Origin: a virus
Taxonomy: Duplodnaviria > Heunggongvirae > Uroviricota > Caudoviricetes
Length of the DNA: 35,777 nucleotides
Virus record (IMG/VR): IMGVR_UViG_2778261389_000005
Coordinates: 1 to 35,777 of that record
Strand: one strand, 5' to 3'
The notes under the pieces were generated by a model that saw only the letters and a list, made by a program, of their open reading frames with translations, was not told where the DNA came from and ran no database searches. The translations under genes and the position numbers were made by a program. Below, piece after piece: positions 22,368 through 35,777 of this stretch (its first letter is position 1; the number at the start of each line of letters is the position of its first letter).

Positions 22368-22515
22368 TGTCCCATGTCCCACCTCTGGCGATCATTACGG
22401 ACACCTCGCCAGCTCTGGCTATTCCAGTTTATTCCAGTGGGACATTCTGGTGGGACATGGCAAAAATGTCCCAGGCGAATGTCCCACCCCAGAAAATGTC
22501 CCAGGTGATGTCCCA
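22368..22515. repeat. Array of TGTCCCA / TGGGACA repeats upstream of the small terminase gene (cosB-like candidate)
   Basis: Direct copies at 22368, 22375, 22467, 22480, 22497, 22509 and inverted copies at 22438, 22451; last copy overlaps the start codon. Confidence 0.5.
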
Positions 22516-23084
22516 TGACCACGATGAACCAGAGTCAGTACGCACAACATTCAGGTGTGGATCGCAAAACAATTGGTCGGTGGATTAAAGCCGGGCGCTT
22601 CATTGTGATGGACGGAGACCTGATTGACGTAGAGGCCAGCGATGCGGCATTGAAGAAAAACCGCGATGGCAAAGACCCGCGCGCCTCGAACGCGAAGAAA
22701 AAGAAAACTCCCGTCGTTAGCGATAACGATGATGACGGTGATGAAATCAATAAAACTGTCCGCCAGATAATGCTCACTGAAGGAGCAGATCTTTCGAGAG
22801 AGGAAGCGGGACGTATCCGCGAGAATTACATGGCCCTGCAGGCAAAGCTGCAGTATGAAAAAGACAGCGGCCAGCTTATTGAGCTGACAGCAGCCGAGGA
22901 GGTTTTATTCAACGCCTTTCGCCAACAGCGTGATGCCTGGCTTAACTGGCCGTCCAGGGTGGCGCCGCTAATGGCTGCTGATCTGGATGTACCGGCGGAC
23001 AGGATGACAGAGGTGCTGATTGAACATGTCCACAAACACATCTCAGTCCTCGGAGAGCCAGAGTTTAACCCGGCAGAAGATTGA
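22515..23084 (+). CDS. Terminase small subunit (Nu1-like, HTH)
   Basis: N-terminal HTH (QYAQHSGVDRKTIGRWIKAG); position immediately upstream of large terminase. Confidence 0.6.
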   Translation: MTTMNQSQYAQHSGVDRKTIGRWIKAGRFIVMDGDLIDVEASDAALKKNRDGKDPRASNAKKKKTPVVSDNDDDGDEINKTVRQIMLTEGADLSREEAGRIRENYMALQAKLQYEKDSGQLIELTAAEEVLFNAFRQQRDAWLNWPSRVAPLMAADLDVPADRMTEVLIEHVHKHISVLGEPEFNPAED

Positions 23085-33707: not shown

Positions 33708-33856
33708 CAACCTGGCAGGAAATGGCCGCTGACGTCACCTTCTATTTCCGCTGGTCTGAGGACAGGGCGTGGGGAATGACCCGCGCCCGGCTGAAATGGT
33801 GGGTGTCGCAGGCATTCCGGATAAACAAGCTTAGGAAACCTGAAGACGATGAGTAA
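33429..33856 (+). CDS. Frameshift-extended tail assembly chaperone (E+E'-like), predicted -1 frameshift
   Basis: -1 frame after TTTTTTG stays open for about 55 codons (DLEALTTWQEMAADVTFYFRWSED...) to TAA at 33854-33856, overlapping tape-measure start. Confidence 0.5.
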
Positions 33857-35777
33857 TTCTTTTGATTTTGAGCTGGTGGCCAGCGACCAGGTTAGCGAGG
33901 CTATAGACCGCATTAATGAGGCTGTCCGTGACCTGGAGCCGAAGCTAGATAAAACTAAAGAAGGGCTCAAGTTAGGCGGTCAGGAAACAGCCGACGGACT
34001 GAGCGGTTTTATTTCTCGCCTCGAGAATATGTCGAAGAGCGCGCGGGATAACGTGCAGTTTATTGGCGACATGGTTCCCCCTCTGAAAATGGTGGGGGAG
34101 CTCACGGGGAAGATGGGGGCGCTGGGGTTAGCCGGTGCTGCCGGCTACGGACTGAAACAGGTCGCTTATGGATTTCGGGAGGCATCCCGTCAGGCCTATA
34201 ATCTTGATGTCTCGGCAAAAAATGCGGGAATGCGCGTTGACGATTTTACCCGACTTTCCGGGGCAATGCGTATTCTTGGGGCAGACAGCGAGAGCGCTAA
34301 TGCATCAATAGAAGGTATTTTCAAAGCATTCAATGAGGCTGCCAGTGGTAAAAACGAGGGGGTTATGGCAGCGATGGCGCAAATTGGTGCTCAAATCCAA
34401 AAAAACAGCGATGGTTCAGTAAATACCCTTAAAACACTGGAGTCTATCGCAAAAATTTTTCCAACCTTGCGACCTGAACAGCAGAAGTCCGCCGCTGATG
34501 CACTTGGGCTGACGCCCGAATTGCTGGCGCTAATGCGTGACGGTGAGCGCATGAAAAAGCTGCTGGCGAAATCGGATGAATTTGGTCTGACTGTGGATCC
34601 GGCACTAAATCAGCAATTGAGTGAAGTGAACGGCACTATGAATGAGCTCAGCGCATCCTGGGATGGTCTGTGGCAACGTTCAAAAAACAAGGCACTTAAG
34701 ACCATTCTTTCGGATGGTTCAGTCAAAGACGGCCTTGAAGGTGTTACCGATCTGTTCACTAATGGTGATTTTACTGGGCTGTCTCATGCTCTCGGTTTTA
34801 TCAACAGCAATGATGCTGAGAAACTACGGCGCATTCAGAACGATAAGGAACTTTATAACAGCTTACCCCGCAGTGAACGTGGGCAGGTTGACGCGGGTTT
34901 CATGACTGATGCTGTAAGAAAGCGGTACGATGCGAATTACCGCGCGACCGATTCTGCGATTCAATTGCAGAATGACTTATCCGCTATCAGCCAGCCACAA
35001 TCCAACGTTGCACGCGGCAATGTTCCTTACGGGGAAACAAGGAATAACGCAATTGGCTTCAGAAATAATAATCCCGGTAATTTGAGAGTTGCAGCAAACG
35101 CAACGGGTAAAAATGGCGGATTTTCTACCTTTGCGAATGATGCCGACGGAAGAACTGCAATGGCGAGACAGCTGATGTTGTATGGTGACAGGGGGAATAA
35201 TACTCTGGATGGGATTATTCATACCTATGCTCCGCAATCAGAGAATAATACTCGTGCATATATTGACTCCGTCTCAAAAGCCACTGGATATGGAGCCAAA
35301 GAGCAAGTAAATCTGCACGATCCGGAAACATTAAAAACGATAATGGCAGCCATGATTAAACATGAGAATGGCGCACAACCTTATACTGAGGAACAACTGC
35401 TAAACGCCATCCAGACCGCCATTACTGATGATCGGTGGTCAGGGAAGAGAAATCCGGATGTGCTGGCCCAGCAGCGGTATGACATTATCTCAGGTTCGCA
35501 AACTGGAAATCGTGACTCCAGCACTCTTAGTAACCCGAGTGATGAAACTGATATTCTCTCAGGCTCGCAGAACAGAAATCGGGAATCCATCATTCTGAGT
35601 GATACGGGTAAGAAAAGTGATGAAAGTGTACTCGGCGACAATCTGGCTAAGTCTCTTAAAGAGGCAATGTCAGAACAACCACTTAAGCTCGAAATCACAA
35701 TGGTTAATGATAAGGGTGAGCGAAAAACCTATAATGCGGAAAATAATGGCAGAATAACAACGGCCATGAATTACTGA
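33849..35777 (+). CDS. Tail tape measure protein
   Basis: 642 aa, mostly helical and Ala/Gly-rich; follows frameshifted chaperone; stop codon at window end. Confidence 0.7.
   Translation: MSNSFDFELVASDQVSEAIDRINEAVRDLEPKLDKTKEGLKLGGQETADGLSGFISRLENMSKSARDNVQFIGDMVPPLKMVGELTGKMGALGLAGAAGYGLKQVAYGFREASRQAYNLDVSAKNAGMRVDDFTRLSGAMRILGADSESANASIEGIFKAFNEAASGKNEGVMAAMAQIGAQIQKNSDGSVNTLKTLESIAKIFPTLRPEQQKSAADALGLTPELLALMRDGERMKKLLAKSDEFGLTVDPALNQQLSEVNGTMNELSASWDGLWQRSKNKALKTILSDGSVKDGLEGVTDLFTNGDFTGLSHALGFINSNDAEKLRRIQNDKELYNSLPRSERGQVDAGFMTDAVRKRYDANYRATDSAIQLQNDLSAISQPQSNVARGNVPYGETRNNAIGFRNNNPGNLRVAANATGKNGGFSTFANDADGRTAMARQLMLYGDRGNNTLDGIIHTYAPQSENNTRAYIDSVSKATGYGAKEQVNLHDPETLKTIMAAMIKHENGAQPYTEEQLLNAIQTAITDDRWSGKRNPDVLAQQRYDIISGSQTGNRDSSTLSNPSDETDILSGSQNRNRESIILSDTGKKSDESVLGDNLAKSLKEAMSEQPLKLEITMVNDKGERKTYNAENNGRITTAMNY

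What the first reader, a model, noticed from the sequence alone, without database searches (positions are those of the whole stretch)
22515..35777. Mosaic virion module: lambda-type head genes joined to a contractile-tail gene set
Terminase, gpW, portal, S49 protease, decoration and gpE-like capsid genes follow the lambda order. They are followed by sheath, tube and E/E'-type chaperone genes characteristic of P2/Mu-like myovirus tails rather than a lambda siphovirus tail. The junction (30066-31553) contains four small unassigned genes.
Basis: partly seen in the sequence, partly recalled or inferred. Interest (0 to 1): 0.4.

Follow-up and report, generated by a model that had tools for sequence, protein, structure and literature searches.

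The report
Lambda-type head, Mu-type contractile tail prophage
This stretch is the intact particle-building gene set of an E. coli prophage that combines a lambda-style head with a Mu-style contractile tail, a combination already seen and photographed in close relatives (Citrobacter phage phiNP, Serratia phage BZS1), so it is real but ordinary.

Summary
On the + strand, 22515-35777 encodes small and large terminase, gpW, a lambda-family portal, S49 protease, scaffold-like protein, gpD, gpE capsid, four small genes, sheath, tube, a chaperone and the tape measure.

- **Tail type:** it is Mu-type, not P2-type (DUF2635/gp38, a sheath matching the solved Mu sheath, PF10618 tube, Mu gene order).
- **Junction genes:** three of the four can now be assigned.
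  - 30451-30810 is a gpFII-type head-closure protein.
  - 30807-31352 is a tail terminator. A confident model matches lambda gpU, T5 p142 and Mu gp37, and no curated family covers the protein.
  - 31356-31553 is Mu gp38-like.
  - 30066-30446 carries a weak DUF7210 match and remains unexplained.
- **Other features:** a lambda-style cos site lies just upstream (22323-22334), and the chaperone gene has a conserved -1 frameshift site.
- **Distribution:** the same gene order occurs in phiNP and BZS1, both shown by electron microscopy to have contractile tails. It also occurs in 59 of 5,426 complete E. coli genomes and in prophages of three proteobacterial classes.

The join is therefore old and stably inherited, not a recent recombination. 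This is a new member of a known kind, of low interest.

The parts
22270..22514 (+). cos region. cosN is the 12-nt GCATTGCGCGCC at 22323-22334. Eight copies of (A/G)TGTCCCA at 22367-22515 are candidate small-terminase binding sites (cosB-like).
   Evidence: The 12-mer is the only exact copy in the window, and it equals the experimentally mapped cohesive end of BZS1 (PMC7556043). Its flanks align to the joined ends of BZS1. All 7 exact ATGTCCCA copies in the 35.8-kb window lie here.
22515..23084 (+). small terminase subunit (Nu1 role)
   Evidence: phrog_57 'terminase small subunit', E 4.6e-36. No Pfam or NCBIfam hit. Only 34% identical to BZS1 p01.
23020..25149 (+). large terminase subunit, lambda gpA type (PGAP start at 23026)
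   Evidence: GpA_ATPase E 2.8e-64 and GpA_nuclease E 2.2e-78. 29% identical to lambda A.
25158..25421 (+). gpW-type head-tail adaptor
   Evidence: PF02831 gpW, E 1.3e-14.
25421..27058 (+). portal protein, lambda family
   Evidence: PF05136, E 6.3e-100. 31% identical to lambda B.
27055..27921 (+). S49 prohead protease (N-terminal part of lambda gpC)
   Evidence: PF01343, E 1.6e-27. 36% identical to lambda C residues 7-283.
27923..28513 (+). scaffold-like protein (Nu3 position), a separate gene here
   Evidence: phrog_6382, E 5.7e-77. Weaker hits to the C-terminal parts of head maturation proteases (phrog_17040, 53, 2229). Start taken from PGAP annotation of the identical prophage. The function is inferred from position.
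28513..28917 (+). gpD-type head decoration protein
   Evidence: PF02924, E 3.2e-20.
29015..30064 (+). gpE-type major capsid protein (open frame from 28979)
   Evidence: PF03864, E 6.1e-60. 30% identical to lambda E, 92% to BZS1, 88% to phiNP.
30066..30446 (+). 126-aa protein of unknown function: variable acidic N-terminal half plus a conserved C-terminal domain of about 55 aa with a DUF7210 match. It sits in the position of lambda FI.
   Evidence: phrog_24496, unknown function. DUF7210 scores 16.1 bits here, below the cut-off of 27; the phiNP orthologue scores 28.9 bits, above it. Alignment. hhalign against lambda FI gives probability 0.6%.
30451..30810 (+). gpFII-type head-closure (stopper) protein, 119 aa
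   Evidence: PF05354 Phage_attach, E 5.5e-13, 49.8 bits against a cut-off of 26. phrog_82 'head closure Hc1', E 9.8e-23. 69% identical to phiNP, 57% to BZS1, 36% to phiAP1.
30807..31352 (+). tail terminator protein, 181 aa: gpU-like core (about 1-145) plus a C-terminal arm (146-181)
   Evidence: AlphaFold2 model with a 61-sequence alignment, pLDDT 92.9. Foldseek against PDB: the top hits I could identify are tail terminator or collar proteins (T5 p142, lambda gpU, R4C, P74-26, pyocin R2 collar, Mu gp37 9khy_1, T4 gp15). BFVD hits are consistent. No Pfam, NCBIfam or PDB sequence match.
31356..31553 (+). DUF2635 protein, homologue of Mu gp38; role unknown
   Evidence: PF10948, E 1.7e-19. 39% identical to Mu gp38. 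Mu gp38 was not resolved in the Mu virion structure (PMC11915804).
31550..33052 (+). contractile tail sheath, Mu gpL (gp39) type
   Evidence: Phage_sheath_1 plus Phage_sheath_1C. Solved Mu sheath 9khy, E 3.5e-93 over residues 3-491. 37% identical to Mu L.
33056..33427 (+). tail tube, Mu gpM (gp40) type
   Evidence: PF10618 Tail_tube, E 1.8e-35. 24% identical to Mu gp40, E 8.5e-06.
33429..33856 (+). tail assembly chaperone pair: short product 33429-33707 (92 aa), and a -1 frameshift product of 142 aa made by slipping at T_TTT_TTG (33686-33692) and reading on to 33856
   Evidence: PF10109 Phage_TAC_7, E 9.6e-09. The heptamer is in the X_XXY_YYZ register. It is conserved as TTTTTTG in phiNP and TTTTTTA in BZS1, and the peptide in the -1 frame is conserved too. 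The frameshift itself is inferred, not shown.
33849..35777 (+). tape measure protein (642 aa) with an embedded endolysin-like domain (aa 402-527, nt about 35052-35429)
   Evidence: phrog_2276, E 1.3e-155. PDB 9vvp Gp29, E 1.3e-19, and 7q47 'Endolysin', E 1.7e-08, over residues 402-527.

Best explanation
This is the complete late (virion) operon, up to the tape measure, of a temperate E. coli myovirus of the phiNP/BZS1 type.

Inferred assembly pathway, from the lambda and Mu pathways:
1. The small terminase binds the repeat array next to cosN.
2. The gpA-type large terminase nicks cosN to leave 12-nt 5' cohesive ends. It packages DNA through a lambda-family portal into a gpE shell.
3. The shell was built on a scaffold, matured by an S49 protease, and is then stabilised by gpD.
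4. gpW and then the gpFII-type protein close the filled head.
5. Separately, a Mu-type tail is built on a baseplate encoded beyond the window. The tape measure, with the two chaperone forms made by a -1 frameshift, sets the length. Tube and sheath polymerise around it.
6. A hexamer of the 181-aa terminator caps tube and sheath. Its gpU-like core offers the docking face for the gpFII ring. Its C-terminal arm is proposed to insert into the last sheath ring, as in Mu gp37.

The head-to-tail joint is thus gpFII on terminator. The whole block is an old, co-inherited unit rather than a fresh recombinant.

Shown here: gene identities, order and integrity; the terminator fold; the cos 12-mer; the conserved slippery site; conservation of the block across hosts.

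Inferred: stoichiometries, the FII-terminator contact, the role of the arm, the frameshift, and particle production by this particular prophage.
For: - Family assignments of 14 of the 16 genes.
- Sheath matches the solved Mu sheath.
- Terminator fold: pLDDT 92.9, with lambda gpU, T5 p142 and Mu gp37 among 40 PDB hits at E <= 1e-3.
- Genes are tightly packed, with overlapping stop and start codons at 30807-30810 and 31550-31553. Promoter- and terminator-like sites are no more frequent than in shuffled sequence.
- All gene lengths match those of the active phages phiNP and BZS1.
- The cos 12-mer is identical to the mapped BZS1 end, and the flanks align.
- The slippery heptamer and the peptide in the -1 frame are conserved.
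- A 99.9% identical prophage carries the full Mu-type baseplate (N, P, Q, gp46, gp47, YmfQ), fibres and an invertase.
- The same order portal-gpD-gpE-(DUF7210)-FII-terminator-DUF2635-sheath-tube is seen in phiAP1, in an IMG/VR contig, and in the genome loci from Enterobacterales, Paraburkholderia and Caulobacteraceae. All full-length loci show it except L117, where a portal fragment abuts the terminator. Short contigs show the part of the order they cover.
- In a neighbour-joining tree, sheaths linked to lambda-type heads form one clade.
- Contractile-tailed virions are published for phiNP and BZS1, and phiNP lysogenises E. coli K-12 (PMC3072379, PMC6456863, PMC7556043).
Against: - No particle, transcript or protein data exist for this exact prophage.
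- The window lacks the baseplate genes.
- The terminator assignment rests on a predicted structure. TM-scores are 0.4-0.6 and sequence identity is below 20%.
- Foldseek ranks siphovirus terminators above Mu gp37. The C-terminal arm is modelled with lower confidence (pLDDT about 63-84), so its sheath-binding role is by analogy only.
- One junction gene (30066-30446) and DUF2635 have no known role.
- The sheath tree has no support values.
Confidence: 0.9

Rival explanations
1. A recent recombinant: a lambdoid siphovirus that lately swapped its tail genes for those of a Mu-like phage, with the crossover inside 30066-31553.
For: - Relative to lambda and Mu themselves the block is chimeric.
- The early region of the same prophage is highly mosaic among E. 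coli genomes: no genome covers 80% or more of window 1-22514.
- The terminase genes are much more diverged from BZS1/phiNP (34-49%) than portal and capsid (81-92%), so local exchange does happen.
Against: - The same head-connector-terminator-tail order is kept in relatives whose proteins are only 26-58% identical, in three proteobacterial classes.
- Identities across the junction change smoothly: capsid 88%, FII 69%, terminator 73%, sheath 72% against phiNP.
- Sheaths linked to lambda-type heads are monophyletic in the neighbour-joining tree.
- GC content shows no step across the junction (0.50-0.55).
Confidence: 0.04
2. A defective prophage remnant or a tailocin (headless contractile killing particle) that happens to lie next to unrelated head genes.
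For: - Mu-type tail modules have been co-opted as tailocins in Pseudomonas (PMC4542187).
- One sheath hit is such a cluster (DVM-2008).
- The window stops at the tape measure.
Against: - All 16 reading frames are intact and full length compared with the active phages.
- Head, connector and tail genes are contiguous and overlapping.
- A cos site, integrase, repressor region, replication and lysis genes are present in the window.
- The rest of the tail is present in identical prophages.
Confidence: 0.05
3. The tail is P2-type rather than Mu-type.
For: The sheath domains (PF04984, PF17482) and the chaperone family PF10109 are shared by P2 and Mu tails. The slippery TTTTTTG is also the kind of site described for P2 E/E' (own knowledge).
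Against: - DUF2635/gp38 lies directly upstream of the sheath gene.
- The tube is PF10618, with no Phage_tube hit.
- The best solved match is the Mu sheath.
- The order sheath-tube-chaperone-tape measure followed by N, P, Q, gp46, gp47 and YmfQ is the Mu order. In P2 the baseplate genes precede the sheath gene (own knowledge).
Confidence: 0.02

Closest known systems
Citrobacter phage phiNP (OR565852; C. rodentium prophage)
   Same: Gene-for-gene the same virion operon from gpW to the tape measure. Identities: portal 84%, capsid 88%, FII 69%, terminator 73%, sheath 72%, tube 93%. It has the same TTTTTTG slippery site. It is a proven myovirus that infects and lysogenises E. coli K-12 (PMC3072379, PMC6456863).
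   Different: The terminase genes are only 33-47% identical. The host and integration site differ (ssrA against the kch/yciI-tonB interval), and so does the early region.
Serratia phage vB_SspM_BZS1 (MT843275)
   Same: Same order. Capsid 92%, portal 81% and sheath 64% identical. The 12-nt cohesive end is identical and the cosN flanks are conserved. Contractile tail shown by electron microscopy (PMC7556043).
   Different: Small terminase 34% and large terminase 49% identical. A different repeat (GGTAACA against TGTCCCA) lies between cosN and the small terminase gene. The slippery site is TTTTTTA.
Phage lambda head and packaging genes (Nu1, A, W, B, C/Nu3, D, E, FI, FII)
   Same: Same families in the same order, plus a cos site with a 12-nt overhang. 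Identities: A 29%, B 31%, C 36%, E 30%. W, D and FII are recognised by Pfam.
   Different: - Protease and scaffold are separate genes rather than nested.
- There is no detectable FI homologue.
- There is no gpZ or gpU family member by sequence.
- A contractile tail follows instead of V, G, T, H.
Phage Mu tail genes (gp37-gp48)
   Same: gp38/DUF2635, sheath (37%), tube and chaperone family, and the order followed by an N, P, Q, gp46, gp47, gp48-type baseplate.
   Different: - The Mu neck is portal-gp36-gp37 with no stopper (PMC11915804). Here the neck genes are gpW plus gpFII.
- The terminator is not a PF08873 member.
- The tape measure is unrelated by BLAST and carries an endolysin-like domain.
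- There are no transposition genes.
SfV/YeP1-type temperate myoviruses (HK97-type head plus Mu-type tail)
   Same: A second, well-known case of a Mu-type tail joined to a foreign head. DUF2635, sheath (41-47% identical) and tube are in the same order.
   Different: The head is HK97 type (PF05065), the connector is Phage_HCP (PF05521), and the terminator is PF23840.
Pararheinheimera phage vB_PsoM_KLER1-1
   Same: Lambda-type terminase, gpW, portal, gpD and gpE (capsid 45% identical), followed by a contractile tail.
   Different: It has a fused protease-scaffold gene and a gpZ-like gene. The tail has P2-like baseplate genes, and no homologue of the 181-aa terminator was detected.

Membership tests
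Lambda-type head and packaging module | gpA-type large terminase with ATPase and endonuclease domains | tested here: met
   PF05876 E 2.8e-64; PF20454 E 2.2e-78.
Lambda-type head and packaging module | cos site giving 12-nt 5' cohesive ends, next to the small terminase gene | tested here: met
   Exact copy of the mapped BZS1 overhang at 22323-22334, with conserved flanks. Cutting at this site in this prophage has not been shown.
Lambda-type head and packaging module | gpW, lambda-family portal, S49 protease, gpD and gpE in lambda order | tested here: met
   PF02831, PF05136, PF01343, PF02924 and PF03864, all above their gathering scores.
Lambda-type head and packaging module | gpFI packaging accessory protein | tested here: not met
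   The gene in the FI position (30066-30446) gives hhalign probability 0.6% against lambda FI. It has a DUF7210-like domain instead.
Lambda-type head and packaging module | gpFII head-closure protein | tested here: met
   PF05354, 49.8 bits against a cut-off of 26; phrog_82.
Mu-type contractile tail | gp38 (DUF2635) directly upstream of a gpL-type sheath | tested here: met
   PF10948 E 1.7e-19; sheath against PDB 9khy E 3.5e-93.
Mu-type contractile tail | gpM-type tube (PF10618) and a gp41-type chaperone followed by the tape measure | tested here: met
   PF10618 E 1.8e-35; PF10109 E 9.6e-09; phrog_2276.
Mu-type contractile tail | Mu-type baseplate (gp43-gp48) | tested here: met
   Outside the window. 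In the 99.9% identical prophage of NZ_CP104681, PGAP annotates in order, downstream: DNA circularization protein, two baseplate assembly proteins, GP46 family, J/gp47 family, YmfQ.
Mu-type contractile tail | gp37-family terminator (PF08873) | tested here: not met
   No Pfam hit for the 181-aa protein or for 60 relatives. Mu gp37 itself hits PF08873. The fold is shared.
P2-type contractile tail | P2 FII-type tube and baseplate genes upstream of the sheath gene | tested here: not met
   The tube is PF10618 only. The baseplate genes lie downstream of the tape measure.
Tail terminator proteins (gpU-like fold) | alpha/beta core fold of lambda gpU / T5 p142 / Mu gp37 | tested here: met
   Model pLDDT 92.9. 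40 PDB hits at E <= 1e-3, including lambda gpU, T5 p142, pyocin R2 collar and Mu gp37.
Tail terminator proteins (gpU-like fold) | hexameric ring capping tube and sheath; C-terminal arm joined to the last sheath ring | not testable with these tools
   Only a monomer model is available. Residues 146-181 are extended and of lower confidence. The role is inferred from Mu gp37 (PMC11915804).
phiNP/BZS1-like temperate myoviruses | collinear virion operon with detectable identity in every gene | tested here: met
   All 16 genes match both phages (33-93% identical; the 126-aa gene only over its C-terminal half), in the same order.
phiNP/BZS1-like temperate myoviruses | [quoted passage not shown] | not testable with these tools
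   Shown for phiNP and BZS1 by electron microscopy (PMC3072379, PMC6456863, PMC7556043), not for this prophage.

The most novel reading that the evidence does not exclude
The 181-aa protein represents a large tail-terminator sequence family not covered by any curated model. It has 315 clusters at 50% identity and is named 'ATP-binding protein' or 'ATP-binding tail sheath protein' in public records. In every locus examined it sits between a gpFII-type stopper and a Mu-type sheath. On this reading it is the specific adaptor that lets a lambda-type head dock on a Mu-type contractile tail. Mu-type tails would then use three different terminator sequence families, one per head type.
Probability: 0.6. 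Interest if true: 0.3.

Novelty: new member of a known kind. Interest (0 to 1): 0.15.

Why it matters
The practical value is in annotation rather than discovery.
- It shows that a prophage found in about 1% of complete E. coli genomes, and widely in Enterobacterales, belongs to the phiNP/BZS1 group of temperate myoviruses.
- It gives the probable neck composition: gpW, gpFII-type stopper, gpU-fold terminator.
- It corrects the public name 'ATP-binding (tail sheath) protein' for the terminator. The sequence has no Walker A motif.
- It locates the cos site and the chaperone frameshift site.

For phage evolution it adds a tidy example. The same Mu-type tail is attached to Mu-type, HK97-type and lambda-type heads, each time through a different terminator sequence family with the same fold. 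This points to the stopper-terminator contact as the place where head-tail compatibility is set.

Tried and rejected
1. **My own frame error.** In some searches the gpFII-type gene was translated from 30452 instead of 30451. This made it look as if the gene had been replaced relative to BZS1/phiNP. An error message exposed the mistake and one search gives the correct values (57%, 69%, 36%). There is no discontinuity at that gene.
2. **Is the 126-aa gene a lambda FI homologue?** hhalign probability is 0.6%. It has no BLAST, Pfam (above cut-off) or NCBIfam hit. A database search returned only near-identical sequences without domains. Rejected as a homologue; the role remains unknown.
3. **A programmed frameshift or readthrough joining protease and scaffold into a gpC-like fusion?** The relative frames of the two genes differ among relatives: same frame in BZS1, +1 in the window and in phiNP, another frame in phiAP1 (arithmetic on the coordinates). 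Rejected.
4. **First AlphaFold model of the terminator.** With a shallow alignment it was unusable (pLDDT 53). A 61-sequence alignment fixed this.
5. **Sequence-only routes to the terminator's identity failed:** Pfam on 61 family members, a PDB profile search and NCBIfam.
6. **Fetching distant loci.** An intermediate alignment worked.
7. **My small local capsid profile missed two loci (L090, L139).** Pfam showed that both have gpE capsids.
8. **Promoter and terminator scan.** No signal above shuffled sequence.
9. **Does the terminator travel with the head rather than with the tail in exchanges?** It cannot be decided. The three head-type lineages are each monophyletic for the sheath in the sample at hand.

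
Full report
**What is there.** The + strand of 22515-35777 carries sixteen closely packed genes.

Head and packaging genes, by family search:
- Small terminase 22515-23084: phrog_57, E 4.6e-36.
- gpA-type large terminase 23020-25149: both domains, E 1e-64 to 1e-78.
- gpW 25158-25421.
- Lambda-family portal 25421-27058: E 6e-100.
- S49 protease 27055-27921.
- Scaffold-like protein 27923-28513: phrog_6382, with weaker matches to the C-terminal parts of head proteases.
- gpD 28513-28917 and gpE capsid 29015-30064.

Tail genes:
- DUF2635 protein 31356-31553.
- Sheath 31550-33052.
- PF10618 tube 33056-33427.
- Phage_TAC_7 chaperone 33429-33707.
- Tape measure 33849-35777: phrog_2276, E 1e-155.

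**Which tail.**
- The sheath aligns over its whole length with the solved sheath of phage Mu (PDB 9khy/9ki1/9lj8, E 3.5e-93) and is 37% identical to Mu gpL.
- The small gene just upstream is the homologue of Mu gp38 (39% identical), and the tube is of the Mu gpM family.
- In a 99.9% identical prophage of E. coli 2022CK-00450, the tape measure is followed by a DNA circularization protein, two baseplate assembly proteins, and GP46, J/gp47 and YmfQ family proteins. Tail fibre genes with an invertase come next. That is the Mu order.
- The tail is Mu-type.

**The junction genes.**
- 30451-30810 (119 aa) is a gpFII-type head-closure protein (PF05354, 49.8 bits against a cut-off of 26; phrog_82 'head closure Hc1'). 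The lambda-type set thus runs on through the junction.
- 30807-31352 (181 aa) matched no Pfam, NCBIfam or PDB sequence. Sixty relatives gave no Pfam match either.
  - A search of 1.84 billion representative proteins found 315 related clusters.
  - With 61 of them as the alignment, AlphaFold2 gave a confident model (pLDDT 92.9).
  - Foldseek against the PDB returned tail terminators and collar proteins among its best hits: T5 p142, lambda gpU, R4C, P74-26, pyocin R2 collar, Mu gp37 and T4 gp15 (40 hits at E <= 1e-3). The named hits in the viral library agree.
  - The protein is therefore a tail terminator. It has a gpU-like core of about 145 residues and a C-terminal extension of 36 residues.
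  - In Mu, such an extension of gp37 forms a beta-sheet with the last sheath ring (PMC11915804). The same role here is an inference.
  - Public records call this protein 'ATP-binding protein' or 'ATP-binding tail sheath protein'. The sequence has no Walker A motif.
- 30066-30446 (126 aa) has a variable, acidic N-terminal half and a conserved C-terminal domain. That domain resembles DUF7210: below the cut-off here, above it in the phiNP orthologue. It lies where lambda has FI but is not detectably related to it. Its role is unknown.

- *cos site.* The 12-nt sequence GCATTGCGCGCC was mapped experimentally as the cohesive end of Serratia phage BZS1 (PMC7556043). It occurs exactly once in the window, at 22323-22334, 180 nt upstream of the small terminase gene. 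Both flanks align with the joined ends of the BZS1 genome.
- *Repeat array.* Between cosN and the start codon lie eight copies of (A/G)TGTCCCA. All seven exact copies in the 35.8-kb window are here. BZS1 has GGTAACA repeats at the same place, and its small terminase is only 34% identical. The repeats are probably the terminase binding sites and vary together with the protein.
- *Frameshift site.* The chaperone gene contains T_TTT_TTG in the slippery register at 33686-33692. A -1 shift there extends the product to 142 aa, ending at 33856. The heptamer and the peptide in the -1 frame are conserved in phiNP and BZS1.
- *Tape measure domain.* The tape measure carries an endolysin-like domain at residues 402-527.

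**Relatives.**
- Among 50,697 phage records, only two share the whole operon closely:
  - Citrobacter phage phiNP: capsid 88%, terminator 73%, sheath 72%, tube 93% identical.
  - Serratia phage vB_SspM_BZS1: capsid 92%, terminator 61%, sheath 64% identical.
- Both have been imaged and have contractile tails, and phiNP infects and lysogenises E. coli K-12 (PMC3072379, PMC6456863, PMC7556043).
- The module itself occurs in 59 of 5,426 complete E. coli genomes, 52 of them over 80% or more of its length.
- The window is the left two thirds of such a prophage. It starts at the integrase gene next to kch and has a lambdoid early region: RecET, repressor region, O/P, NinG, Q and lysis genes.

**How old is the join.**
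- Acetobacter phage phiAP1 (capsid 58%, terminator 26%, sheath 37%) has the same order. So does an IMG/VR contig whose terminator is about 30% identical.
- A scan of one genome per species, seeded on the terminator, returned 55 loci. They come from Enterobacterales, Paraburkholderia, Caulobacteraceae and unclassified Proteobacteria.
- Wherever enough DNA was present, the order was portal, gpD, gpE, (DUF7210), FII, terminator, DUF2635, sheath, tube. One full-length locus (L117) is rearranged upstream of the terminator. Two apparent exceptions were resolved by Pfam.
- Identities fall in step across the junction, and GC content shows no break.
- In a neighbour-joining tree without support values, the sheaths linked to lambda-type heads form one clade. 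It is separate from sheaths linked to HK97-type heads and from Mu.
- The block is mosaic only when measured against lambda and Mu. It is an old lineage in its own right.

**The head-tail joint in comparison.** Mu-type tails are attached to three head types, each with a different connector set and a different terminator sequence family just upstream of DUF2635.

| Head type | Example | Connector genes | Terminator family |
|---|---|---|---|
| Mu | Mu | gp36 (PF07030) | gp37 (PF08873) |
| HK97 | YeP1, IPK | Phage_HCP (PF05521) | PF23840 |
| Lambda | this window | gpW plus gpFII (PF05354) | the 181-aa family, no curated model |

- The terminator fold is shared between Mu gp37 and the window's 181-aa protein; PF23840 proteins were not compared structurally.
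- Mu has no stopper layer (PMC11915804), whereas this phage encodes both gpW and gpFII.
- The likely docking contact is therefore gpFII on terminator, as gpFII on gpU in lambda. This step is inferred.

**Verdict.** This is an ordinary, apparently intact virion module of a temperate myovirus group that is already described. Its modest points of interest are the uncurated terminator family, the mis-annotation, and the cos and frameshift sites.

Noticed in passing
window 22323-22515: Lambda-style cos site just upstream of the finding. The 12-mer GCATTGCGCGCC is identical to the mapped cohesive end of Serratia phage BZS1. It is followed by eight (A/G)TGTCCCA repeats found nowhere else in the window. 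BZS1 has GGTAACA repeats at the same place and a small terminase only 34% identical, so repeats and protein seem to vary together.
   Followed up: partly
window 33686-33856: Slippery heptamer T_TTT_TTG inside the chaperone gene, with a conserved 49-codon extension in the -1 frame (conserved in phiNP and BZS1). It is not annotated in RefSeq or in the phage records, which leave a 140-nt 'gap' before the tape measure gene.
   Followed up: yes
window 35052-35429 (tape measure residues 402-527): An endolysin-like domain is embedded in the tape measure (PDB 7q47 'Endolysin' E 1.7e-08; 9vvp Gp29 E 1.3e-19; PHROG hits to endolysin and tail injection transglycosylase). Pfam has no match. The Mu tape measure shows no BLAST similarity.
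   Followed up: partly
window 22515-25149 compared with 25158-30064: Relative to BZS1 and phiNP, the two terminase genes are far more diverged (33-49% identical) than gpW, portal and capsid (81-92%), although the cohesive-end sequence is identical to that of BZS1. This suggests exchange of the terminase and cosB segment within the group.
   Followed up: no
window 30807-31352 and public records of its homologues: RefSeq, UniRef and the two phage records name this protein 'ATP-binding protein', 'ATP-binding tail sheath protein' or 'Mu tail sheath family protein'. It has no Walker A motif, and its predicted fold is that of a tail terminator.
   Followed up: yes
window 27055-28513: Protease and scaffold-like protein are two separate genes, not the nested C/Nu3 pair of lambda. 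Their relative reading frame differs among relatives, so no conserved recoding is involved. How the 288-aa protease is targeted to the prohead is open.
   Followed up: partly
window 14179-15913: A 216-aa protein with no family match is followed, with overlap, by a 367-aa protein with an HTH plus an ImmA/IrrE (M78) peptidase domain. The pair sits in the nin-like region between the replication genes and Q and might be an accessory or defence-type cassette.
   Followed up: no
window 7035-7933 (- strand): A HicB-family protein (157 aa) lies next to a 153-aa protein with no family match, in the immunity-region side of the prophage. phiNP also carries a HicAB pair, but elsewhere in its genome.
   Followed up: no
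window 1-22514: The early half of the prophage (integrase at 1-1194, RecET, O/P, NinG, Q, holin and lysozyme) is lambdoid and highly mosaic. No complete E. coli genome covers 80% of it, whereas 52 genomes cover 80% or more of the virion half. In E. coli ET881 and 2022CK-00450 the prophage lies between kch and yciI/tonB.
   Followed up: partly
L136 and L137 (Rouxiella badensis plasmid pSP2, CP114059): Two copies of the same head-terminator-sheath module lie on one 116.6-kb plasmid record, in opposite orientations.
   Followed up: no
L117 (Limnobaculum allomyrinae): In this locus a portal fragment abuts the terminator gene directly, with no gpD, gpE or FII hits upstream. It is probably a rearranged or decayed prophage.
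   Followed up: no
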